DNA of 64,000 nucleotides from Ostreococcus lucimarinus (Eukaryota). A model generated the notes under the pieces. That model had not been told where the DNA came from. It saw nothing but the letters and a program-made list of their open reading frames with translations, and did no database searches. The stretch lies in NCBI GenBank assembly GCA_000092065.1, contig CP000583.1; one strand, given 5' to 3'. The translations under genes were made by a program, and so were the position numbers. Below, one piece after another: positions 38,562 through 60,555 of the stretch (position 1 is its first letter; each line of letters begins with the position of its first letter).

Positions 38562-39816
38562 ATGCGCGCGTCGTCATCGCACGCGCGCGCGCGTGTCGGT
38601 AGAAATCATGTTCACGCGTCGCGCGCGCGCGCGCGTGGGGTGGACGGTGGACGGCCTTCGCGTGTGGCGACGGCGGAACCGTCGCTAATTCGGGAAGGAT
38701 TGGTGTCGAGCCGTGGGACGCGGGGCGGGGCGCGCGTGCTGGTTCAAACGGGCGCGATCGATCCCGCGAGCGCCGTGTCGGCGGTCCAGGGGTTCGTGCT
38801 CGACGGGTCGCCGGGTTTGCGTGCCGCGGCGATGGCGAATACCGCGGTGTTTACGAGCGGCTTCGGCGTCTTGCGACTCGGGTTGACGCTCGCGGGTATC
38901 GCGCACTCGTGGTTTCTCGGAACGGTGCGTGAATCGCCAGAAACACGCGTGGCGATGCGCATTTAGATTTTTTGTCGCGAGTGCGACGCTCGAACGACCG
39001 TGGGAGGTGATGACAGATGACAGATACTTCCGAGCGCGCGCAACGCGGACCGACAATCGTCGGTGCAGCGACGGCCGCTCCGTGAGCGAGTATCAAAATA
39101 TTAGTTTTCAATCTGATCCCGGAGGTTTCTGATAGTTCTGAGACTCGTTTTTTGTGCGTTCGACAGACTGACTCGCTTTTCCCGCGCGCACGCAGGTCGT
39201 CATGGCGGCGTTTGGTGTCGGAGGATACGCTCTCGTGTGCGCCTACTTCATCGTCGGCAGTGCGGTGACAAAGATAAAATTGAAGGAAAAGCAAGCCGAG
39301 GGGATAGCGGAGGCGCGGGGAGGGCTTCGTGGCCCCGGAAGCGTGTGGGGGAGCGGGACGGCGGGGATTTTGTGCGCTATTGCGGCGCTTTCGGGATGGA
39401 CACCCGTGTCGTTGGAACTCTGGCGGATCGGTTTCGTGGCGAGCTTTTGCAGCAAACTCAGCGACACCACCGCAAGTGAGATCGGCAAGGCCTACGGCAA
39501 GACGACCTATATGAGCACGCCACCGTTCAAGTTAGTTCCCAGAGGTACGGAGGGCGCCGTTAGCGTCGAAGGAACCGTGGCTGGTATCGTCGTATCGGGT
39601 CTGTTCGCCGGGCTTGCGTTCATCATCGGTCAACTGGATGCCGTCGGCGTCGGTGTATGCGTCCTCGCTGCCTTCATCGCGACGACCTTCGAGAGCATGC
39701 TCGGGGCGGCTGTGCAGGGTAGAAAAGGATTTGATTGGATGTCTAACGACGTGGTGAACGGAATACAGATCACGCTCGCGGCTGGGGTGGCCATCGCGTT
39801 GAGAACAATCGTCTGA
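38562..39816 (+). CDS. DUF92/TMEM19-like integral membrane protein, 2 exons: 38562..38924 and 39196..39816
   Basis: Exon 1 ...GIAHSWFLGT ends at a GTGCGTG donor. The 271-nt intron has branch site GACAGACTGACTCG and acceptor CGCACGCAG. Exon 2 VVMAAFGVGGYALVCAYFIVGSAVTKIKLKEKQAEGIAEARGGLRGPGSVWGSGTAG... (RGG.R motif) plus further TM segments. Confidence 0.7.
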
Positions 39817-51213: not shown

Positions 51214-54200
51214 CTAAGGTTCATAACTCAAGTTCGGTCCCAACCAGCGTTGCACTTCAGAGAGCTCCATCTTTTTGCGGCCCGCGTATTCTTCAACTTG
51301 GTCAGACGTAAGCTTACCGACGTTGAAATATTCAGAGCACGCGCCTGCGAAGTACAAGCCAGAGACCGAGGCCGAGGGAAGCATGGCGAACGTCTCGGTA
51401 AGTTCGACGCCAATTTCTTCCTTGACCTTCATCAAGTCCCACATTGTCGCCTTTTCCGTGTGATCTGGCTGGGACGGATAACCCGGCGCTGGACGAATGC
51501 CTTGATATTTCACCTTGAGTAAGTCTTCGCAGTTGAAAGACTCATCCTTGGCGTAACCCCAGTCATCCTTACGGACGCGCTCGTGGAGCAACTCCGCGAA
51601 CGCTTCAGCGAGGCGATCAGCCAAGGCTTCCGCCATGATGTAGGAGTAATCGTCGTTCGCAGCCTTGAACTCGGCCGTAAGCTCATCGAGACCAAATCCA
51701 GCAGAGCACACGAACATACCGAGGTAATCCTTCACACCGCTATCCTTCGGGGCGATGAAGTCACTGAGCGCCATGTACGGCTCGTCGGTGTCTTTTTCGG
51801 CTTGCTGGCGGAGCGTGTAGAAAGTGTGGTGCGTCGTTGTCCGGCTTTCATCTGTGTAAACGACGATGTCATCGCCAACGGAGTTGGCCGGGTAGAAACC
51901 ATAAATACCCTTGAGAGTAAGTCTCTTGTTTTGCTTGATTTTTGTGATCATCGCGTTGGCCTCGTCGAAGAGCTTCTTCGCCTCGGGGCCGACAGTTTCA
52001 TCGTTGAAAATCTTCGGGTAGCCACGGTTCGGGTAGCGACCACGCAGCTGCCACACCTGGAAGAACGGATTCCAGTCAATGTACGGAAGCACATCGTCGA
52101 TCGACACCTCCATCGCCTTGGCTCCGCAGAACTTGGGAGTGACAGGGACATTCGGCGCGGCGGTGAAGTCCACCGGTTTCACAGTTGCTCTCGCCTTTTG
52201 GAGGGTAAGGTATTTACGATCCTCTAAACCAGCGTAAAATTCGTCACGCATCTCAGCGTACGTTTCATTGATGTCGTCCATGAAGTCAGCGTGCTTCCTC
52301 TTGTCCAACAAGGTCTGAGCCACTGGCACCGCACGCGAGGCATCGAGAACGTGAATCACACCGCCGGAGTAGTTTGGCGTCAGCTTCACCGCAGTGTGCA
52401 TCTTAGACGTCGTCGCACCGCCGATGAGAAGCGGGATTCTCATACCTGCCTTTTCCATCTCCTTTGCGACGGTCACCATCTCATCCAATGACGGTGTGAT
52501 CAAGCCCGAAAGACCCAAAATGTCAGCCTTGCTCTCTCTCACCGCATCTAAAATCTTTTCACAGGGACACATCACGCCAATGTCAATAACCTTGAAGTTA
52601 TTGCACCCTAAAACGACGGCAACAATGTTCTTACCGATGTCGTGCACGTCACCCTTCACCGTGGCGATCAAAAAGGTACCGGCGGTACTGGCTTCAGTGC
52701 TGCCGGTGAGAGCCTTTTCCGCATCCATGAAAGGGATAAGGTGGCCGACAGCCTTCTTCATCACACGGGCAGATTTAATAACTTGCGGCAAAAACATCTT
52801 ACCGGCGCCAAAGAGATCACCAACCACATTCATGCCGTCCATCAGTGGACCTTCGATGACTTCCAGGCAAGACTTGTACTTGTCGCCCACGCGGCACTCT
52901 TCCGTGTCAGCGATGCAGAACTCGTCAATCCCCTTGATGAGGGCATATTCGAGTCGCTTTTCGCACGGCTGGTTACGCCATTCCTTACCCGACCCAGCAG
53001 CCTTCACGGCACCACCGCCAGCGGCACCCTTCTTGCGAAGGTTGCAAGGAGTGGACTTCGGGTCAAGCGTCGCCGCAAATTCGAGCATGCGCTCAGTGGC
53101 GTTGGTGCATCTGTTCAAGAGCACGTCTTCGACGTATTCCAACAACTCCTTGTCCATCTTCTCGTACACATCCTCTTCGACTTGCGCGGCGTTCACGATA
53201 CCCATGTCCATACCGGCCTTGCAGGCGTGGTACAAGAAGGCGCTGTGGAACGCGCGGCGCACGGGCTCGTTGCCGCGGAAGGAGAAGGCCAAGTTGGACA
53301 CGCCTCCGCTGATTTTGCAACCAGGGCAGAGACGCTTGATCTCGCGAGTAGCGTTGATGAAGTCAACGCCGTAGTTGTTGTGTTCTTCCATGCCCGTGCC
53401 GATCGTAAGAATGTTCGGGTCAAAGATGATGTCTTGCGGGTTGAAGCCAAGCTGTTCGACCAAGAGCTTGTAAGCGCGGCAGCAAATGCGCACCTTCTCA
53501 GCTTCAGTCGCCGCTTGCCCTTCCTCGTCGAACGCCATCACGACGACGGCGGCGCCGTGACGCTTCACGATCTTCGCGTGATGCAAGAACTCTTCCTCAC
53601 CACCCTTGAGGGAGATAGAGTTCATGATGCACTTGCCTTGGCTGCACTTCAAGCCAGCCTCGACGACGTGGAACTTGGAAGAGTCAATCATGAAAGGAAC
53701 CTTGGAGGCGTCCGGCTCGGAAACGAGCAAGTTCACAAAGCGAGACATGGCAGTTTCGCCGTCGATCAAGCCGTCGTCCATGTTGATGTCAATGACGTGC
53801 GCACCGTGCTCGACTTGCTTGAGCGCGATGGCGAGAGCCTTCTCAAAGTTACCATCGACGATGGCCTTCTTGAAGATGGACGAGCCCGCAACGTTGCACC
53901 GTTCACCGAGGTTGATGAACGTCTTGCGGTAGTCATTTTCGTTCGGCACATAGTTGAACGGCTCGAGACCGGAGATGCGCATAATTTCTGGCACATCGTG
54001 CTTCTTGCGCGGCGTGTACGGTGCCACCATCTGGGCGAGAGCGCCGATGTGGTCATCCGTGGTGCCGCAGCAGCCACCGATGCCATTCAACAACCCCTTC
54101 TCGAGGAAGACGCGGCAGTCTTCGGCCATTTCAGCACCCTTTTGATCGTAACCACCCATGGCGTTCGGCAAACCGGCGTTAGGGTACGCGAACACCCAGC

Positions 54201-55365
54201 AGTCGGCGCACTTGCTCAAGTTCTCAATGTACGGGACCATGTCCTTGGCGCCGAGAGCGCAGTTCAAGCCAACAGCCATCGGCTTGGCGTGGCTGACGGA
54301 GTTCCAGAACGCCTCGTTCGTTTGGCCAGACAAGGTACGACCGGAGTTGTCGACGATGGTGCCGGAGATGAACAACGGAAGACGCGTACCGTAAGCCTCA
54401 AAGAACTTCTCAATGGCGAAAATCGCCGCCTTGGCGTTGAGCGTGTCAAAGATCGTTTCAACCAAAATCAAGTCCACACCACCCTCGACGAGTGCCTCAA
54501 TCTGCTCGTAGTACGCGTCAACAATCTCGTCGAACGTACACGCGCGGAACGCCGGGTTCTCGACGGATGGAGACACCGAGAGTGTTCTGTTCGTCGGACC
54601 AATGGCGCCGGCGGCAAAGCGCGGCTTGGCCGGATTTTGCTCCGTAAACTTCACGCACGCCGCCTTCGCCAAGCGAGCAGCGGCCAAGTTCATGTCGCGC
54701 ACTTCTTCCTTCTTGTCGAGCTCGTAGTCCGCCTGCGCGATCATCGTCGAAGAGAACGTGTTCGTCTCGATGATGTCGGCGCCCGCGGCGAGATACGCCT
54801 CGTGGATTTCAGAGATAACCTCCGGCTTCGTCAGCACCAAGATGTCGTTGTTCCCCTTCAAGTCATGCGTATGATTCTTGTAACGATCACCACGGAAGTC
54901 ATCCTCGCTCAGCTTGTACTTTTGCACCGCCGTTCCCATCGCGCCGTCGATCACCATCACGCGCTTTTGCATGATACCCTCGATGACGTCGAACGCCGCC
55001 GACTTCTTCAACGAATCCACCCACTTCGCGTACTTCGGCACCTTCGCTCTGTTTGTCTTCGGTTTCACCTTCGGGTACAAGTCGTAGTACCCCGGCGCGT
55101 CCCCGAACCGCTTCACCTCGTGCTCCTCCATCGCCTCCGCCCCGCTCAGTTCCAGGGCGAACGCGGCGATGATGCCGATCGGCGCCAAGATCGGCGTCAA
55201 CACGACGAACAACGCGGCGAACAGCGCGGCTATGGGCCAGGTCGCTAAGATGATAATCGCCCCTCGCTTACCGCTCCGACGAGACGCGTTGTACCATCGC
55301 GCGTAGGCGAGTCTCAGCGCCGGACCGTCGATGGCCGTCATCACGCGGGCGAGCGGCGACGCCAT
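51214..55365 (-). CDS. metH: Cobalamin-dependent methionine synthase (MetH), single exon; the conserved core begins at about 55131 (MEEHEV...) and there is an in-frame upstream extension containing a hydrophobic segment; the track ORF runs to 55968
   Basis: Full-length collinear MetH modules: Hcy-binding (VIDGAMGT...), pterin-binding, B12-binding (...[11 protein letters not shown]...) and AdoMet activation domain (...[21 protein letters not shown]...), with about 1300 aa conserved. The upstream in-frame [78 protein letters not shown] sits in a good Kozak context (AAACCATGG). Confidence 0.95.
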
Positions 55366-55694
55366 GGTTTCGCGACTCACGGCGCGCGCGCGACGCCGCT
55401 CGGGAGGTCTTCGCGCGAGCGTTCGCGCGAAGAGAATTCCTTCGTGCCGCGGACGCGACGCGCGCGTGCGTGTGACGCGCGCGAGGGCGTCTGAGGGCGA
55501 CGCGCGCGCGGCCGCCGTCGCTCGAGGAGTCGCTTCGAGTGGATAGCGCCTGCGCCTGCGGAAAATCGAATTCGACGAGTCAGGACTCGTCGGCAGTCCC
55601 CGAATGACGTTTCTCCCGCGAGACGCGCGAGGGACGAGGGCGATTGAGGACGCGAAGCGTGGATCGGTGTGACAAAAACTAACGATTTGGCGCG

Positions 55695-56940: not shown

Positions 56941-57926
56941 ATGGGGAACGCGCAGAATAAGGCGCGAAACGCCTCGGACGGCGCGTCGGCGCCGGAGACG
57001 CGCGCGAGACGAAGCAGGGACGGGCGAGGGCGGGACGCGAGTCGGAGCAACGGCAGCGAGAGCGCGCGCGGCGCGGCGAGCGAGAGCGGCGAGCGAGGGC
57101 ACGGGGGATGGGAGGGCGCGGATGCGCTTTCGTACGGGTGCGCGCGCGATCGCGACGGCGAACGAGGGAGGGAAACGCGCGCGGGGCGCGCGGGGAAGAG
57201 AGTCCCGAGCGCGAGGGCGCGGCGCGGCGACGCGCGGCGACGAGGACACGACTGACGAACGCGCGCGCGAACAGACCGCAAACGCCCACGGTGCCGATAC
57301 CCGGCGGGGAGGGTGGAGGGGTGAATTACCCGGCGTGGGCGACGACGGAACCGGCGCTGGTGCCGGTGGCGATAAATTGGACCCAAGGCGGGAACAGCGT
57401 GGAGGTGGAGGGGAGCTTTGATAACTGGCAGTCTCGGCAGACGCTGCATCGGAGCGGGAACAGGGAGTTTGCGATCGTGATGTCGCTGCGACCGGGGGTG
57501 TATCAGTACAAGTTTATAGTGGATGGACAGTGGAAATACGCGCCGGATCAACCGGCGATGTACGACGAGATTGGCAACGTGAACAACGTGTTGGAGGTGC
57601 AGGAATACGTGCCAGAAATTTTGGATAGCTTGGATGCGTTTACGGCGCCGGCGTCGCCACCGGCGAGCTACGATTGCGCACCGTTTAACTCGGACGACTT
57701 TGCAAAGGAACCGCCACCGCTACCACCGCAGTTGCACATGACTCTGTTGAACATGCCCATGGTGCCCGACGCGCCGAATTTGCTCCCGCGACCGCAACAC
57801 GTGGTGCTCAATCACACGTATTGCGACGGGACAAAGTCGGAGAGCGGAGTGCAGGTGCTCGGAACGACGCACAGATATCGATCAAAGTACATCACGGTCG
57901 TCTTCTTGAAAGCCACGCAATCGTAG
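56941..57926 (+). CDS. AMPK/SNF1 kinase beta (regulatory) subunit with N-myristoylation motif, CBM48 glycogen-binding domain and ASC domain; 2 exons approx 56941..57137 and 57275..57926
   Basis: MGNAQNKARNASDG (MGN myristoylation start). Exon 1 ends at GTGCGCGCG. The intron has branch site GACACGACTGACG and acceptor GAACAG. Exon 2 ...GGVNYPAWATTEPALVPVAINWTQGGNSVEVEGSFDNWQSRQTLHRSGNREFAIVMSLRPGVYQYKFIVDGQWKYAPDQPAMYDEIGNVNNVLEV... and C-terminal ...HVVLNHTYCDGTKSESGVQVLGTTHRYRSKYITVVFLKA. Confidence 0.8.
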
Positions 57927-57969: not shown

Positions 57970-60555
57970 CTACGCGCACGTTCCCACGCACGCCGCCGCG
58001 CAGTCCGATTTCCATTCGTACTGACGCTCGTTCGCGTCGCCGACGCACATCCAACCGCCCGCGTTCTCGGAATCACGGAAAAATGCGTGCTCGAGCGCTC
58101 GACCCGCCGTCGGACGCTCGCTCGGATCCCAGGAGAGCAACTTGCGAAGCAGGCGCAGAGTCCAAACAGATTCAAAGCCGACGGAGAGGGGATCGCGCTC
58201 CTTGAAAACCTCCATCAACGCCGTCTCCGTGCAATCCCACGTCAGTAAAGGTGCGACTTGTGTGTTTGGAGGCACTATGCATAGTTCGAGCATCGCGCGC
58301 AGTCGGTAAGCGACCGCGCGAGCTTTTGGATGCACGCCGCGCAATTCTCGCTCGAGCGCCAATCGGGTCGTCTTGCGCGAGATTTGAGAAAACGCCTTGG
58401 GCGAGCCAAGCGCTAAAACTTCCGCCATCATCACGCCGAGCGACCACATGTCGTATTTTGACGTTCGCTCCACCCCACGATCATCACCGAAGAGAACTTC
58501 TGGAGGACTATATTCCGAAGTTTCTTGCGCCATGGACGGGCCGGAGGCTCCGTAAAGTTCCGAGCGACTACGAGCGTCCACGGCACTTCCGAAATCCCCG
58601 AGCCGAGCCTCGACGAAGTCGCCGTCAAGTTTGACGAATACGTTCGCAGGCTTAATGTCTCTGTGTACAATGCCAAATTTGGCGTGACTAACATCCACGG
58701 CGGCGAACACGTGCCTCAAAATTGTCTTCAGCGTTCGACGACCTTTGCGTTGAAGGCGCATGTCTCGCCACCATTCGCTTTGCGTGACAAGTTGCAAACC
58801 TTGCGATCCACCAACGGCTTCGGGGGCGTAAATGAGACGTTCGAGGGACTCGCCTTCGTCTTTGAAGACAAGCCATTGTTCGCTTCCACTCGATGGCGTT
58901 CTCTCAAAGGTGTGTACAAATCTCGCCAAGTGGGGTGACGAGCCGCAGAGCAGCCTTCCGAAGTACACCTCGCGCTCTGCGCTCAATCGTAAATCCGAGC
59001 CCTGATGCAACAGAATACGCTTCAAAATTACCCTGGACGATGCAAACGCATCTGATATTGTGTCAGGAGCGGGTTTACAATCCCATTCGTGCTCCGTCTC
59101 CCGCGACAACTTGCCACGCCACACCTCTCCGAAATGACCTCGAGCGAACGGGCGCTCGCCGGCGGCGAACGCATCTTCCTCGAAATTATCACCACTCGCA
59201 TCGACGATATCGACGTAAGAAGTGATGGCATTTGAGACACTCCCTTTTTCGCTCGTTCCAGGTGCTAACGCTAACGCTGCGAGCGCGCCTTCGATAGCAC
59301 TTTGCTCAAACGTCTTTCCGATGTCAGCCATCGGAAGTTCTTCGTAGTAATCGTCGTACCGGAACGGGATCTCTGCGGGTGAGTGAGGACCGGATGACCA
59401 TGCGATCATTTCCGTGATTTCATAAGCTGAAATACGCGCACCCACTCGGGGGATTTCAGCGACCAGGTCGGAAGGAGTGTGTTGAAGCGCCCCGTGCGCG
59501 ACGCTTTGAATTGGCCGACCCGAGGATAGCGCCCCGAGCGCGACGTTATCGGAGGCCCCAAGGCTAAGCGCACATTTGAGTGCGCGCTCGATTCCACTTC
59601 GCATGCCGCGTGTACTTGCTTCGCTAAACTCTATCGCATCCCAGCTCTCAGCAGCTTCATTTGCTGTGTCGGACCCGGCGTCGCCTCCGAGCGCGATGAC
59701 GGGAACGTTTTCGGCGCGTTCGCAGTCGTGTTTCCCATCGAACACGAACGCGCACGCATCGTCCGCGCGTAGAGCGTCGGTCGTTCCATCGCTTGTTAAT
59801 ATCAATCCCATTTCGTCCCTTTTCCATCGCCTGCGCATGATCTCCGGCGTGGCCACCACGCCAAACGCTTTATGCCTCGCGCCGCCGAGTGCGCGAGTGA
59901 CAAGAAGTTCTCCCCCCACGCGCAGTTTCCCACGCGCGCGCACTATCTTCACTCCTAGCGCATCTAATCGTTTTCTTTCGTTTTCGTTATCTAATCCATG
60001 ATCTTGTGTCAAACGTCGCGCCTTGGCGCGTCCTGACGAATCCGCAAAGCACGCGTACGCCGCGCTATCGCCCGCATGCGCCACCGCGAATCCATCCTCT
60101 CCGCTCGCCGCGAGCACCACCGTCGCCCCACCGCTCGAGCTCGACCGCGCCCAAAATTCGTCCAATTTCGCGATCGTCGTCTCCAGCGCTTTCGCGACGG
60201 CGCGTGACGCCGCCGCGGTCGCGCCGTCGCCGAGCGCGTCTTTGAAAATCTCCGCCGCCGCCAGCGTTGTCGACCTCGACGCCGCACCGCCGTCGTGCCC
60301 GTCGAACACGCCCACGAGATGGAGATGATGAGCACCACCGACGACGCACGCGTCTTCCTGAGCGCGACGGCGGCCTCGCGCGCGCGCGCACGCGCGTTCG
60401 AGTTCGAGCTCTGGGACAGCGGGCGCGTCGAGCGCGCGCAGCGCACCGATGACGAGCGCGATCGCGGCGACGAGCGAAGCGCGGGTGATGAGGAACGGCC
60501 TCAACGGTGCGACCTTCGTCGCCGGCGCGCGCGCCTCCGCGCGCGCGCGCGACAT
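57970..60555 (-). CDS. Membrane-anchored PP2C phosphatase - Ser/Thr protein kinase fusion protein (861 aa)
   Basis: N-terminal TM LVAAIALVIGALRAL. PP2C domain (VGVFDGHDGGAASRS...HAGDSAAYAC...GASDNVALGALSS). C-terminal kinase domain (HFGEVWRGKL...VILKRIL...VHRDIKPANVFVKLDGDFVEARLGDFGSA...YSPPEVLF...DMWSLGVMM). Confidence 0.85.
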   Translation of the reverse strand: MSRARAEARAPATKVAPLRPFLITRASLVAAIALVIGALRALDAPAVPELELERACARARGRRRAQEDACVVGGAHHLHLVGVFDGHDGGAASRSTTLAAAEIFKDALGDGATAAASRAVAKALETTIAKLDEFWARSSSSGGATVVLAASGEDGFAVAHAGDSAAYACFADSSGRAKARRLTQDHGLDNENERKRLDALGVKIVRARGKLRVGGELLVTRALGGARHKAFGVVATPEIMRRRWKRDEMGLILTSDGTTDALRADDACAFVFDGKHDCERAENVPVIALGGDAGSDTANEAAESWDAIEFSEASTRGMRSGIERALKCALSLGASDNVALGALSSGRPIQSVAHGALQHTPSDLVAEIPRVGARISAYEITEMIAWSSGPHSPAEIPFRYDDYYEELPMADIGKTFEQSAIEGALAALALAPGTSEKGSVSNAITSYVDIVDASGDNFEEDAFAAGERPFARGHFGEVWRGKLSRETEHEWDCKPAPDTISDAFASSRVILKRILLHQGSDLRLSAEREVYFGRLLCGSSPHLARFVHTFERTPSSGSEQWLVFKDEGESLERLIYAPEAVGGSQGLQLVTQSEWWRDMRLQRKGRRTLKTILRHVFAAVDVSHAKFGIVHRDIKPANVFVKLDGDFVEARLGDFGSAVDARSRSELYGASGPSMAQETSEYSPPEVLFGDDRGVERTSKYDMWSLGVMMAEVLALGSPKAFSQISRKTTRLALERELRGVHPKARAVAYRLRAMLELCIVPPNTQVAPLLTWDCTETALMEVFKERDPLSVGFESVWTLRLLRKLLSWDPSERPTAGRALEHAFFRDSENAGGWMCVGDANERQYEWKSDCAAACVGTCA

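What the first reader, a model, noticed from the sequence alone, without database searches (positions are those of the whole stretch)
55131..55365. Methionine synthase carries an in-frame upstream extension with a long hydrophobic (TM-like) segment
Immediately upstream of the conserved MetH start, and in the same frame with no stop, lies MASPLARV... with a ~40-residue Ile/Leu/Phe/Val-rich stretch ([42 protein letters not shown]). The ATG has an excellent Kozak context. Such hydrophobic stretches essentially never arise by chance in this CG-rich DNA. It could be a membrane-tethered MetH isoform, an alternative-start isoform, or a fused small membrane-protein gene.
Basis: seen in the sequence. 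Interest (0 to 1): 0.55.

Follow-up and report, generated by a model that had tools for sequence, protein, structure and literature searches.

The report
Membrane-anchored methionine synthase in picoalgae
The vitamin-B12-dependent methionine synthase of the marine picoalga Ostreococcus lucimarinus really does begin 131 residues upstream of its annotated start, with a conserved hydrophobic segment that most likely ties this normally soluble enzyme to a membrane; relatives across the Ostreococcus/Micromonas group share it.

Summary
On the minus strand, ATG 55365 opens a 1383-aa ORF. Its first 78 residues contain the most hydrophobic 40-aa stretch in any frame of the window (0 hits in 30 simulated sequences).

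The window is Ostreococcus lucimarinus CCE9901. Its reference MetH model (XP_001417046.1, 1252 aa) starts at M132 (54972), so it omits the extension and the linker.

The extension is coding and belongs to MetH:
- GC is strongly skewed to the third codon position, and no ATG lies upstream.
- It has no indels, whereas the intergenic DNA is riddled with them.
- dN/dS is 0.13-0.22 in unsaturated comparisons.
- It is conserved in at least 13 lineages, with invariant residues (N26, V54, P58, P62, L71).
- In intron-bearing relatives it is a separate exon. An intron-less, transcript-like contig joins that exon in frame to the MetH core.
- A profile search of 1.84 billion proteins found it only on MetH N-termini.

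Best explanation: a lineage-specific N-terminal membrane anchor. It consists of a 37-residue uncharged helix-Pro-turn-helix and a roughly 50-residue flexible linker, and the catalytic modules face the cytosol. Membrane insertion, topology and purpose are inferred, not shown.

Side finding: genomes 99.3-99.9% identical carry a 2103-bp tandem duplication of the homocysteine- and folate-binding modules (2084-aa MetH). The window lacks it.

The parts
55366..55499 (-). Proximal upstream region: 5' leader and probable core promoter. It contains no ATG. The transcript-like contig L017 starts at 55409, 44 nt upstream of the ATG.
   Evidence: no ATG between the upstream gene's stop (55695) and 55365; GC by codon position is flat (0.65/0.69/0.66). 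L017 aligns from 55409; 55366-55499 is well conserved in the 94%-identical relative L018, while 55500-55640 is full of indels whose lengths are not multiples of three.
55362..55371 (-). Start codon in a strong initiation context, GAAACC ATG G (ATG = 55365-55363).
   Evidence: It is the first ATG downstream of the neighbouring TIM50-like gene.
55132..55365 (-). N-terminal extension, aa 1-78. It is coding and is the true N-terminus of MetH.
   Evidence: GC by codon position 0.59/0.55/0.85. No indels and 2 aa changes versus L018, dN/dS 0.22. Homologous exon in relatives has dN/dS 0.125. 35 homologues found. The exact 1383-aa ORF is called on 9 metagenome contigs.
55279..55314 (-). Conserved juxtamembrane motif, aa 18-29 ([12 protein letters not shown]). 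It corresponds to W[HI]DAYNFAR in Micromonas-like lineages. Y25 is nearly invariant and N26 invariant. It is predicted helical.
   Evidence: Alignment A3. 92% nucleotide identity over 26 nt with the sister species, while the intergenic DNA is unalignable. AlphaFold helix 14-30.
55153..55263 (-). Uncharged hydrophobic span of 37 residues, aa 35-71 ([37 protein letters not shown]). This is the putative membrane-embedded segment.
   Evidence: hydrophobicity; the span is 37 residues in 9 of 13 lineages tabulated, and 7 of those 9 (8 of the 13) have Pro at relative positions 10, 24 and 28. AlphaFold helix 33-73, pLDDT about 72-77.
55180..55197 (-). Central Pro-containing turn, aa 57-62 (TPILAP), consensus [TS]PxxxP. 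P58 and P62 are invariant in the 14-sequence alignment A3.
   Evidence: Alignment A3 invariant columns. In the 13-lineage table, relative positions 24 and 28. 85% nucleotide identity over 53 nt with the sister species.
54991..55131 (-). Flexible linker, aa 79-125, rich in Pro, Lys and acidic residues, with conserved islands YPxVxPKxN and [10 protein letters not shown]79 (55131) is the second plausible start.
   Evidence: AlphaFold pLDDT below 50 for aa 78-86 and low up to about aa 110. dN/dS 0.25. Invariant Y93, Y97, P98, V100, P102, K103. The intron of relatives sits at the position equivalent to aa 106/107.
54970..54972 (-). M132, the start of the reference gene model XP_001417046.1 / UniRef100_A4RUZ2 (1252 aa). 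That model omits aa 1-131.
   Evidence: the ORF from 54972 to the stop matches the NCBI/UniProt entry exactly. The versions starting at M9, M79, M137, M143, M208 and M225 are not in the collection, and the M1 version is held only from JGI/ENA metagenomes, not NCBI.
51214..54990 (-). MetH catalytic modules, aa 126-1383 plus the stop: Hcy-binding, pterin-binding, B12 cap, B12-binding and AdoMet activation domains.
   Evidence: Precomputed Pfam hits PF02574, PF00809, PF02607, PF02310 and PF02965, in that order, on the identical protein. NCALG/GGCCG zinc-ligand motifs and the GDVHDIG cobalamin motif are visible in the translation.
53032..55041 (-). The unit (aa 109-778, the Hcy and pterin modules) that is tandemly duplicated in near-identical genomes, together with a 93-nt unique junction. 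It is present once in the window.
   Evidence: L013, L019 and L021-L023 align to the window except for an extra 2103 bp. The two copies are 99.2% identical.

Best explanation
The 234 bases upstream of M79 are not a leader. They encode the real N-terminus of the cobalamin-dependent methionine synthase (MetH) of Ostreococcus lucimarinus. The reference annotation starts too late, at M132.

The extension is a module specific to the Ostreococcus/Micromonas group (Mamiellales-like picoalgae). It has three parts:
- a short conserved helix (aa 14-30, motif AY/WYN);
- an uncharged hydrophobic segment, 37 residues long in most lineages, with a central [TS]PxxxP turn;
- a roughly 50-residue flexible Pro/Lys-rich linker leading into the homocysteine-binding barrel.

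The most likely mechanism is as follows. The hydrophobic segment inserts into a membrane as a helix-turn-helix (re-entrant or hairpin) anchor with both ends on the cytosolic side. The very high hydrophobicity favours the ER or an ER-derived membrane. The complete soluble catalytic machinery then hangs from the linker in the cytosol, where its substrates, AdoMet and its reductase are found.

Shown here: the extension is coding, under purifying selection, conserved, contiguous with MetH (including in an intron-less, transcript-like contig), and exceptionally hydrophobic.

Inferred: membrane insertion, hairpin topology, which membrane, and purpose. My favoured purpose is low-confidence: placing a strictly B12-dependent enzyme next to the endomembrane route by which these B12 auxotrophs take up and hand over cobalamin.

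The confidence of 0.75 is for 'a genuine N-terminal membrane anchor of MetH with cytosolic catalytic modules'. That the extension is coding and part of MetH I put at about 0.93. The hairpin topology I put at about 0.5, and the B12-handover purpose at 0.2 or less.
For: Identity of the window and the annotation gap.

Coding signature:
- Third-position GC is 0.85, against a flat 0.65/0.69/0.66 upstream. There is no upstream ATG, and the context is GAAACCATGG.
- Against a 94%-identical relative, the extension has no indels and only 2 aa changes, while the intergenic region has five indels of non-3n length.
- dN/dS is 0.22 (window vs L018) and 0.125 (L007 vs L009, 16 synonymous vs 7 non-synonymous changes).
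- The upstream intergenic DNA is unalignable with the sister species, but the extension aligns at E = 1.8e-12.

Conservation:
- The sister species has the extension fused in frame (P0001, L002), in a syntenic locus (L001).
- A profile search gave 35 hits.
- Alignment A3 has invariant N26, V54, P58, P62, L71, E80, Y93, Y97, P98, V100, P102 and K103.
- A 47%-GC lineage also has it, contiguous with the core (P0165, L016).

The extension and MetH form one protein:
- In L007 and L009 the extension is exon 1, ending at a GTAAGT or GTGAGT donor.
- L008 is 99.7-99.8% identical to L009 but lacks precisely the 160-nt intron. That joins the extension to the core in frame, behind a 214-nt ATG-free leader.
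- L017, 99.1% identical to the window, starts 44 nt upstream of the ATG and runs through the extension into MetH.

Anchor anatomy:
- It is the only 40-aa segment with KD >= 2.0 in the window, with 0 hits in 30 simulations.
- The uncharged span is 37 residues in 9 of 13 lineages, and 8 of the 13 have prolines at relative positions 10, 24 and 28.
- AlphaFold predicts helices 14-30 and 33-73, then a disordered linker.

Specificity:
- hmmsearch of 1.84 billion representatives found it only at MetH N-termini. Of 20 hits, the single other one is a repetitive protein at E = 2e-4.
- There is no Pfam match and no PDB match.
- Mamiellophyceae lack METE and so depend on MetH and B12 (PMC11439496).
Against: There is no experimental evidence of membrane association, and none for the protein's N-terminus in O. 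lucimarinus.

AlphaFold draws aa 33-73 as one straight 41-residue helix rather than a hairpin, at only moderate confidence.

The two hydrophobic arms are unequal (about 23 and 9-13 residues). A single-pass helix followed by an interfacial segment is therefore also possible.

Flank charges disagree between lineages. Ostreococcus-like sequences are positive on the N side and acidic on the C side. Micromonas-like sequences are neutral on the N side and basic on the C side. The positive-inside rule therefore gives no consistent topology.

Against the more distant sister species, dN/dS over the hydrophobic part is 0.86, although dS is near saturation at 0.7-0.9. Selection there acts mainly on hydrophobic character and on a few positions.

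That L008 and L017 derive from RNA is inferred from their structure. An intron-less allele is the alternative for L008.

The proposed link to B12 handover is speculation.
Confidence: 0.75

Rival explanations
1. The extension is a cleavable organelle-targeting sequence, a bipartite transit peptide plus hydrophobic signal. It would import MetH into the chloroplast, thylakoid or mitochondrion and then be removed.
For: In the window, aa 1-34 are rich in Ala, Arg and Ser with a net charge of about +6. An RR pair precedes the hydrophobic region, and the segment ends with A-E-A just before M79, which resembles an AxA processing site.
Against: None of these features is conserved. The sister species has NVNEM at the supposed cleavage site and four acidic residues in its N-region. 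Micromonas-like N-regions carry almost no positive charge. Targeting peptides rarely keep invariant residues, whereas this segment keeps N26, V54, P58, P62 and L71. A 37-residue uncharged span is two to three times the length of a signal or lumenal-targeting H-region.
Confidence: 0.08
2. Two isoforms are made: a membrane-bound form from M1 and a soluble form from M79 (or M132), through an internal transcription start or leaky scanning.
For: An in-frame Met followed by EE occurs at position 79 in all three Ostreococcus-like lineages (EMEE[HP]). The reference model uses a downstream Met. This rival is compatible with the best explanation rather than opposed to it.
Against: Scanning ribosomes would have to pass a strong AUG (55365), an in-frame AUG (55341) and an out-of-frame AUG (55297). 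Position 79 is V, I or M in Micromonas-like lineages, where it lies inside exon 1. The transcript-like contigs L008 and L017 both include the first AUG. There is no evidence for an internal promoter.
Confidence: 0.15
3. The extension is a single-pass signal anchor rather than a hairpin. The short N-terminal tail would lie on the far side of the membrane and MetH in the cytosol, as in microsomal cytochrome P450s.
For: The first hydrophobic arm is about 23 residues, the length of one transmembrane helix. In Micromonas-like lineages the N-flank is uncharged and the C-flank is basic and Pro-rich (KxTNAPAIEKPKPK), like a P450 halt-transfer signal plus hinge. AlphaFold gives a single helix.
Against: The O. 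lucimarinus N-flank carries +5 (RRSGKRG) and its C-flank -3, the opposite of what N-out/C-in insertion requires. The conserved extra 9-13 hydrophobic residues after the invariant prolines would have no role in this model. The preceding 24-34 residues contain a conserved helix, which is unusual for a translocated tail.
Confidence: 0.25
4. The extension is not translated. It is a chance open frame in GC-rich leader DNA, and the reference annotation (start at M132, or a start at M79) is correct.
For: The frame is open for a further 200 codons upstream of the ATG without being coding, so open frames come cheaply here. The reference model omits the region.
Against: The evidence against is codon-position GC periodicity starting at the ATG, the absence of indels in the extension while the intergenic DNA has many, dN/dS of 0.13-0.22, and amino-acid conservation across lineages whose intergenic DNA is unalignable. 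Hydrophobicity is unmatched in six frames and in simulations. The exon also splices in frame to MetH.
Confidence: 0.03
5. The extension is an independent small membrane-protein gene that merely abuts MetH in frame, or an assembly artefact joining two genes.
For: Prokaryote-style gene callers list the exon as a separate 100-200-aa ORF in intron-bearing relatives.
Against: Those ORFs are intron read-through. The spliced form is continuous with MetH. There is no stop codon in O. lucimarinus, the sister species or the 47%-GC lineage. The same junction occurs in more than 20 independent assemblies. No stand-alone family exists.
Confidence: 0.02

Closest known systems
Canonical cobalamin-dependent methionine synthase (E. 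coli MetH, human MTR)
   Same: It has the same five modules in the same order (PF02574, PF00809, PF02607, PF02310, PF02965). The zinc-ligand motifs NCALG/GGCCG and the cobalamin DxHxxG motif are present. The Hcy domain is 60-65% identical even to bacterial enzymes.
   Different: To my knowledge every characterised MetH is a soluble cytosolic protein that starts about 10-30 residues before the IDGAMGT motif. This one carries 131 extra residues, including a 37-residue uncharged hydrophobic segment. In near-identical genomes it also carries a second copy of the Hcy and folate modules.
Hairpin or re-entrant monotopic anchors (oleosin and caleosin 'proline knot', caveolin intramembrane domain, class I lipid-droplet/ER hairpin proteins)
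   Same: It shares a long uncharged hydrophobic stretch (over 30 residues) interrupted near the middle by conserved prolines. Both flanks are plausibly cytosolic, and the soluble domain lies outside the membrane. This resemblance rests on my own knowledge of those families.
   Different: There is no sequence homology (no Pfam hit; no PDB hit). The motif here is [TS]PxxxP rather than oleosin's PX5SPX3P. The span is 37 residues, not about 72. The arms are unequal. Topology is untested.
N-terminal signal-anchor plus proline-rich hinge of microsomal cytochrome P450s and other ER-tethered enzymes
   Same: A soluble catalytic domain is tethered to the cytosolic face of a membrane by an N-terminal hydrophobic segment followed by a basic, Pro-rich flexible linker. 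This is seen clearly in the Micromonas-like sequences.
   Different: The hydrophobic segment is preceded by a conserved 24-34-residue region and is nearly twice as long as a P450 anchor. In Ostreococcus the charge distribution is the reverse of a P450 anchor.
Compartment-specific methionine synthase isoforms made by N-terminal extensions (plant plastid MetE isoform; organellar MetH activities reported in Euglena)
   Same: An N-terminal addition changes where methionine synthase works. This is from my own knowledge.
   Different: Those additions are cleavable transit peptides without conserved sequence. This one is a conserved hydrophobic module with invariant residues, and it is unlikely to be removed.
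Human lysosome-to-MTR cobalamin handover (LMBD1/ABCD4 - MMACHC - MMADHC - MTR)
   Same: The concept is the same: the B12-dependent enzyme receives its scarce cofactor at an endomembrane through protein-protein handover. This is from my own knowledge and is a functional analogy only.
   Different: In humans the proximity comes from soluble chaperones binding membrane transporters, and MTR itself has no anchor. No link between this anchor and B12 trafficking has been shown.

Membership tests
Cobalamin-dependent methionine synthase (MetH, EC 2.1.1.13) | Five modules in the order Hcy-binding, pterin-binding, B12 cap, B12-binding, AdoMet activation | tested here: met
   Precomputed Pfam hits PF02574, PF00809, PF02607, PF02310 and PF02965 on the identical 1383-aa protein. 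The reference entry is named B12 dependent methionine synthase.
Cobalamin-dependent methionine synthase (MetH, EC 2.1.1.13) | Zinc-ligand cysteines of the Hcy domain and the DxHxxG cobalamin-ligand motif | tested here: met
   NCALG at aa 368, GGCCG at aa 430 and GDVHDIG are present in the translation. This is a motif-level check only.
Cobalamin-dependent methionine synthase (MetH, EC 2.1.1.13) | Enzymatic activity: methyl transfer from 5-methyl-THF to homocysteine | not testable with these tools
   Inferred from 60-77% identity of the Hcy domain to annotated MetH and from the absence of METE in Mamiellophyceae (PMC11439496).
Integral membrane anchor (hairpin/re-entrant or signal-anchor) | Uncharged hydrophobic segment long enough to embed in a bilayer | tested here: met
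   37 residues without D, E, K, R, N, Q or H, mean KD 2.32. Length and proline positions are conserved in most lineages tabulated.
Integral membrane anchor (hairpin/re-entrant or signal-anchor) | Central helix-breaking turn giving two arms with both flanks on the same side | tested here: inconclusive
   P58 and P62 are invariant in alignment A3, and flank charges are inconsistent between lineages, which fits both flanks being on one side. However, AlphaFold models one continuous helix 33-73, and the arms are unequal.
Integral membrane anchor (hairpin/re-entrant or signal-anchor) | Demonstrated membrane association resistant to carbonate or salt extraction | not testable with these tools
   This needs fractionation or imaging in Ostreococcus.
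Oleosin/caleosin proline-knot proteins | Proline-knot consensus PX5SPX3P within a hydrophobic hairpin of about 72 residues, and a match to the family profile | tested here: not met
   The motif here is TPILAP ([TS]PxxxP) in a 37-residue span. No Pfam family matched at E <= 10.
Cleavable signal or transit peptide | Short H-region (about 7-20 residues), a conserved cleavage motif, and no conservation of primary sequence | tested here: not met
   The H-region is 37 residues. The A-E-A site is not conserved (NVN in the sister species, QP or AP elsewhere). Invariant residues run through the segment.

The most novel reading that the evidence does not exclude
The picoalgae of the Ostreococcus/Micromonas/Bathycoccus-like group are obligate B12 auxotrophs. 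They may have rebuilt methionine synthase into a membrane-resident enzyme of about 230 kDa: a hairpin anchor, two complete homocysteine/folate substrate modules, and a single cobalamin module. The anchor would place the enzyme at the endomembrane where imported cobalamin is released, so that the scarce cofactor is loaded directly. The duplicated modules would raise the turnover obtained per bound cobalamin. That would be a previously unrecognised adaptation to B12 scarcity in some of the ocean's most abundant eukaryotic phytoplankton. A Prorocentrum-labelled MetH with an unrelated single-pass N-terminal anchor hints at convergence.
Probability: 0.15. Interest if true: 0.8.

Novelty: new variant of a known kind. 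Interest (0 to 1): 0.6.

Why it matters
MetH is the textbook soluble, modular B12 enzyme. In Mamiellophyceae it is the only route to methionine and the reason these abundant picoalgae need vitamin B12.

A conserved membrane anchor would change where the methyl cycle is thought to run in these cells. It would also give a concrete handle, namely anchor deletion or relocalisation in transformable Ostreococcus, on how eukaryotic algae traffic B12 after uptake, which is essentially unknown beyond CBA1.

There are practical consequences too. The reference model XP_001417046.1 / A4RUZ2 is truncated by 131 residues. In addition, the reference locus may under-represent a 2.1-kb tandem duplication present in closely related genomes. 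Both affect proteomics searches, transcript quantification and METH phylogenies that use this entry.

Tried and rejected
- **Pfam scan** of the extension from three lineages at E <= 10. There were no hits for the algal family and only sub-threshold noise for the Prorocentrum-type N-terminus.
- **PDB profile search.** Only PsaI transmembrane helices appeared, at E > 0.5.
- **AlphaFold** of aa 1-470 with a 68-sequence alignment. The Hcy barrel is confident, but the anchor is a single straight helix at pLDDT about 75. This does not decide between hairpin and single pass.
- **Nei-Gojobori dN/dS against the sister species (L002).** dS is 0.7-0.9, near saturation, and omega is 0.86 on the hydrophobic part, so this comparison is weak. 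I replaced it with two closer comparisons.
- **First single-sequence homology search.** It returned only 2 hits. The word-index search misses long MetH proteins, so the absence of named NCBI hits there was not evidence about annotation. Exact look-ups settled that point instead.
- **Faulty contigs.** L001 (a MAG) has a 34-bp deletion that frameshifts the linker. L015 is misjoined across the repeat. L002 carries an internal stop and a chimeric 5' end. I treated all three as assembly errors and used none of them as evidence about gene structure.
- **Literature searches** for a membrane-bound, anchored or transmembrane MetH in algae found nothing relevant.
- **Positive-inside rule.** It gave contradictory answers between lineages.
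- **Twin-arginine/thylakoid signal reading** (SRRSGK...AEA). Rejected because it is not conserved.
Full report
**What is in the sequence**

The feature lies on the minus strand. An ATG at 55365 (context GAAACCATGG) opens an ORF that runs to the stop at 51214 and encodes 1383 residues. Residues 1-78 are the reported extension. M79 (MEEHEV) is at 55131. Sequence conserved with other MetH proteins begins around V109-F125.

Kyte-Doolittle 19-residue means reach 2.59 within aa 35-75. The maximum anywhere else in the protein is 1.69. In a 40-residue scan of all six frames of the window, this is the only segment with a mean of 2.0 or more. Thirty first-order-Markov simulations of the window gave no hit at 2.0 or at 1.8.

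The 'no stop in frame' argument is weak by itself, because the frame stays open a further 200 codons upstream.

**Whose gene it is**

The neighbouring AMPK-beta ORF (57108..57926) is identical to XP_001416754.1 of Ostreococcus lucimarinus CCE9901, on a 982,987-bp chromosome. The reference MetH entry XP_001417046.1 / A4RUZ2 (1252 aa, 'B12 dependent methionine synthase') equals the window ORF exactly from M132 (54972) to the stop. The versions starting at M9 or M79 are not in the collection, and the M1 version is held only from JGI and ENA metagenomes, not from NCBI. The public model therefore omits 131 residues.

**Is the extension coding?**

Several independent lines say yes.

- *Codon-position GC.* It is 0.59/0.55/0.85 in the extension, like the linker (0.49/0.36/0.89) and the core (0.55/0.38/0.72). 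The 330 nt upstream are flat at 0.65/0.69/0.66.
- *No upstream ATG.* None lies between the stop of the upstream TIM50-like gene (55695) and 55365.
- *Indel pattern.* Against a 94%-identical relative (L018), the distal intergenic region carries five indels of non-3n length. The 234-nt extension has none and only two amino-acid changes, R30A and I45L. dN/dS is 0.22 from 5 synonymous and 3 non-synonymous changes.
- *A second close comparison.* Two Micromonas-like genomes (L007, L009) give dN/dS 0.125 over the homologous exon, from 16 synonymous and 7 non-synonymous changes.
- *The sister species.* Against L001/L002 (60% amino-acid identity in this region) the intergenic DNA is unalignable, but the extension aligns at E = 1.8e-12. 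That pairwise dN/dS (0.60 overall, 0.86 on the hydrophobic part) is uninformative because dS is near saturation.

**Is it part of MetH in relatives?**

A search with aa 1-132 found the sister species' extension fused in frame to MetH (P0001). It lies in a syntenic locus: adh_short, PP2C-kinase, AMPK-beta, NIF/TIM50, then MetH. A three-sequence profile then retrieved 35 proteins.

A 14-sequence alignment (A3) shows invariant N26, V54, P58, P62, L71, E80, Y93, Y97, P98, V100, P102 and K103. Y25, L40, W43, P44, A50, A51, L56, P82 and K85 are nearly invariant.

In the Micromonas-like genomes the extension is a separate first exon ending at a GTAAGT or GTGAGT donor. Splicing L007's 159-nt intron gives ...YPEVQPKANL|[11 protein letters not shown]. 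This aligns without gaps to the window's [21 protein letters not shown].

Contig L008 (JGI Ga0247596) is 99.7-99.8% identical to genomic L009 but lacks exactly the 160-nt intron. That length is not a multiple of three, so only removing the intron restores the frame. L008 also carries a 214-nt leader without any ATG. The simplest reading is a spliced mRNA. An intron-less allele would equally show one continuous ORF.

Contig L017 (Ga0247560) is 99.1% identical to the window. It starts at 55409, 44 nt upstream of the ATG, and runs through the extension into MetH.

A 47%-GC lineage (P0165, L016; Bathycoccus-like by composition, which is an inference) also has the hydrophobic extension contiguous with the MetH core.

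**Is it a domain borrowed from elsewhere?**

No. A profile hmmsearch of 1.84 billion representative proteins returned 20 hits at E <= 1e-3. All are N-terminal MetH exons of this algal group, apart from one repetitive protein at E = 2e-4. Pfam and PDB searches gave nothing.

They are this family, a Prorocentrum-labelled pair (P0008, P0182) with an unrelated single N-terminal TM, and P0021, which is probably an ORF artefact.

**Anatomy and mechanism**

The segment free of charged and amide residues is 37 residues long in 9 of the 13 lineages tabulated. Eight of the 13 have prolines at relative positions 10, 24 and 28. In the window these are P44, P58 and P62.

AlphaFold (68-sequence alignment, mean pLDDT 83) predicts a helix at 14-30, one long helix at 33-73 (pLDDT about 72-77), a disordered region from 74 to about 120, and then a confident Hcy barrel.

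A straight 41-residue helix is about twice the thickness of a bilayer core. Together with the invariant central prolines and the conserved length, this makes me favour a helix-turn-helix (re-entrant or hairpin) anchor with both ends cytosolic.

Flank charges point the same way. Ostreococcus-like sequences are positive on the N side and acidic on the C side, while Micromonas-like sequences are the reverse. That is hard to reconcile with a single conserved transmembrane orientation and easy to reconcile with both flanks on one side.

A single-pass N-out/C-in anchor with a P450-like basic, Pro-rich hinge remains a serious alternative (about 0.25).

In either model the catalytic modules face the cytosol. 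A lumenal MetH is biochemically implausible, because its substrates, AdoMet and its reductase are cytosolic. That point is inference.

Which membrane is involved is unknown. The very high hydrophobicity suggests co-translational ER insertion (inference). The purpose is also unknown. My low-confidence proposal is proximity to the endomembrane B12 delivery route, since these algae lack METE and depend wholly on MetH and B12 (PMC11439496).

**Rivals**

- *Chance ORF.* Effectively excluded.
- *Separate small gene.* Excluded by the continuity and splicing evidence and by the absence of any stand-alone homologue.
- *Cleavable targeting peptide.* Suggested by the Arg/Ala/Ser-rich N-region and by A-E-A before M79 in the window. 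Neither feature is conserved, and the hydrophobic region is far too long.
- *Additional soluble isoform from M79.* Cannot be excluded. It would require bypassing three AUGs, and M79 is not conserved outside the Ostreococcus-like lineages.

**Unexpected side finding**

Metagenomic contigs 99.3-99.9% identical to the window carry an extra 2103 bp inside MetH (L013, which comes from a 957-kb contig, and L019 and L021-L023). The insert is a tandem second copy of window 53032..55041 (aa 109-778, the Hcy and pterin modules) plus a unique 93-nt junction. The resulting protein is 2084 aa.

The two copies are 99.2% identical in DNA and differ at six residues. Both keep the zinc-ligand and pterin-domain motifs.

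The same pterin-to-Hcy junction, with a conserved linker (ATPKQN..NKIAPK.ASELPPVP.YA), occurs in four other places:
- the sister species (P0152, P0154);
- a third Ostreococcus-like lineage (L015);
- Micromonas-like genomes (P0005, L007), where the copies have diverged;
- a more distant sequence (P0010).

The duplication therefore looks old and maintained. The single-copy state of the CCE9901 reference is either a collapsed repeat or a secondary deletion, and this cannot be decided here. L017 shows the anchor, copy 1, the junction and the start of copy 2 on one transcript-like contig.

**Comparison with what is known, and novelty**

The protein is a bona fide MetH by domain order and motifs. 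I found no report of a membrane-anchored or module-duplicated MetH in the searchable literature. Subscription journals are largely absent from that library, and automatic TM predictions may exist in databases that I could not query.

The anchor works like hairpin or signal-anchor tethers. It is not a member of the oleosin family or of any other profiled family.

Verdict: a new variant of a known enzyme. The sequence-level claim is solid, and the cell-biological claim is well motivated but untested. Interest 0.6.

Noticed in passing
window 53032..55041 (-), compared with L013 4001-10255, L019, L021-L023, L017; proteins P0169, P0181, P0168, P0173: Genomes 99.3-99.9% identical to the window carry a 2103-bp tandem duplication of the Hcy-binding and pterin-binding modules (aa 109-778 plus a unique 31-aa junction). 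This gives a 2084-aa MetH with two substrate-module sets and one B12 module. The window (the CCE9901 reference) has a single copy, which is either a collapsed repeat or a deletion allele. Both copies keep the catalytic motifs.
   Followed up: partly
L007 10001-16199; P0005, P0010, P0152, P0154; L015: The same pterin-to-Hcy junction, with a conserved linker (ATPKQN..NKIAPK.ASELPPVP.YA), occurs in the sister Ostreococcus-like species, a third Ostreococcus-like lineage, Micromonas-like genomes (where the copies have diverged) and a more distant sequence (P0010, 67% identity). The module duplication therefore appears ancient and maintained. In Ostreococcus it is homogenised, presumably by gene conversion.
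   Followed up: partly
P0008 (EukProt, Prorocentrum cordatum/minimum transcriptome) and P0182 (ENA): A MetH labelled as dinoflagellate has an unrelated N-terminal single hydrophobic helix (VKHVLLAGIGGAIALYVFL) followed by a Lys-rich linker. The helix is conserved between two variants. This may be an independent case of a membrane-anchored or signal-bearing MetH. Contamination or a plastid-targeting signal was not excluded.
   Followed up: no
window 57970..60555 (-): An intact 861-aa ORF combining a PP2C phosphatase domain and a protein kinase domain is called full-length on 87 contigs. In the reference proteome it is represented only by a 159-aa fragment model (XP_001417048.1 / A4RUZ5). This is another under-annotated gene next to MetH.
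   Followed up: no
window 55366..55499 (-) versus L018: The 130 nt immediately upstream of the MetH ATG are highly conserved with a 94%-identical relative, whereas the next 150 nt or so are riddled with indels. This region probably holds the core promoter and 5' UTR, and it contains GC-rich CGCGCG runs.
   Followed up: no
L001 7600-7625; L002 775-785 and 1-190; L015 560-620: The public assemblies of relatives contain local errors at this locus. There is a 34-bp deletion causing a frameshift in MAG GCA_054229165.1. One ENA contig has an in-frame stop and a chimeric 5' end. Another is misjoined across the duplicated modules. Contig L001 also ends exactly at the repeat junction. The duplication evidently breaks short-read assemblies.
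   Followed up: partly
window 39559..39702 (+): This is the second most hydrophobic 40-residue segment in the window (mean KD 1.93, VSVEGTVAGIVVSGLFAGLAFIIGQLDAVGVGVCVLAAFI). It presumably belongs to an ordinary membrane protein and was not examined.
   Followed up: no
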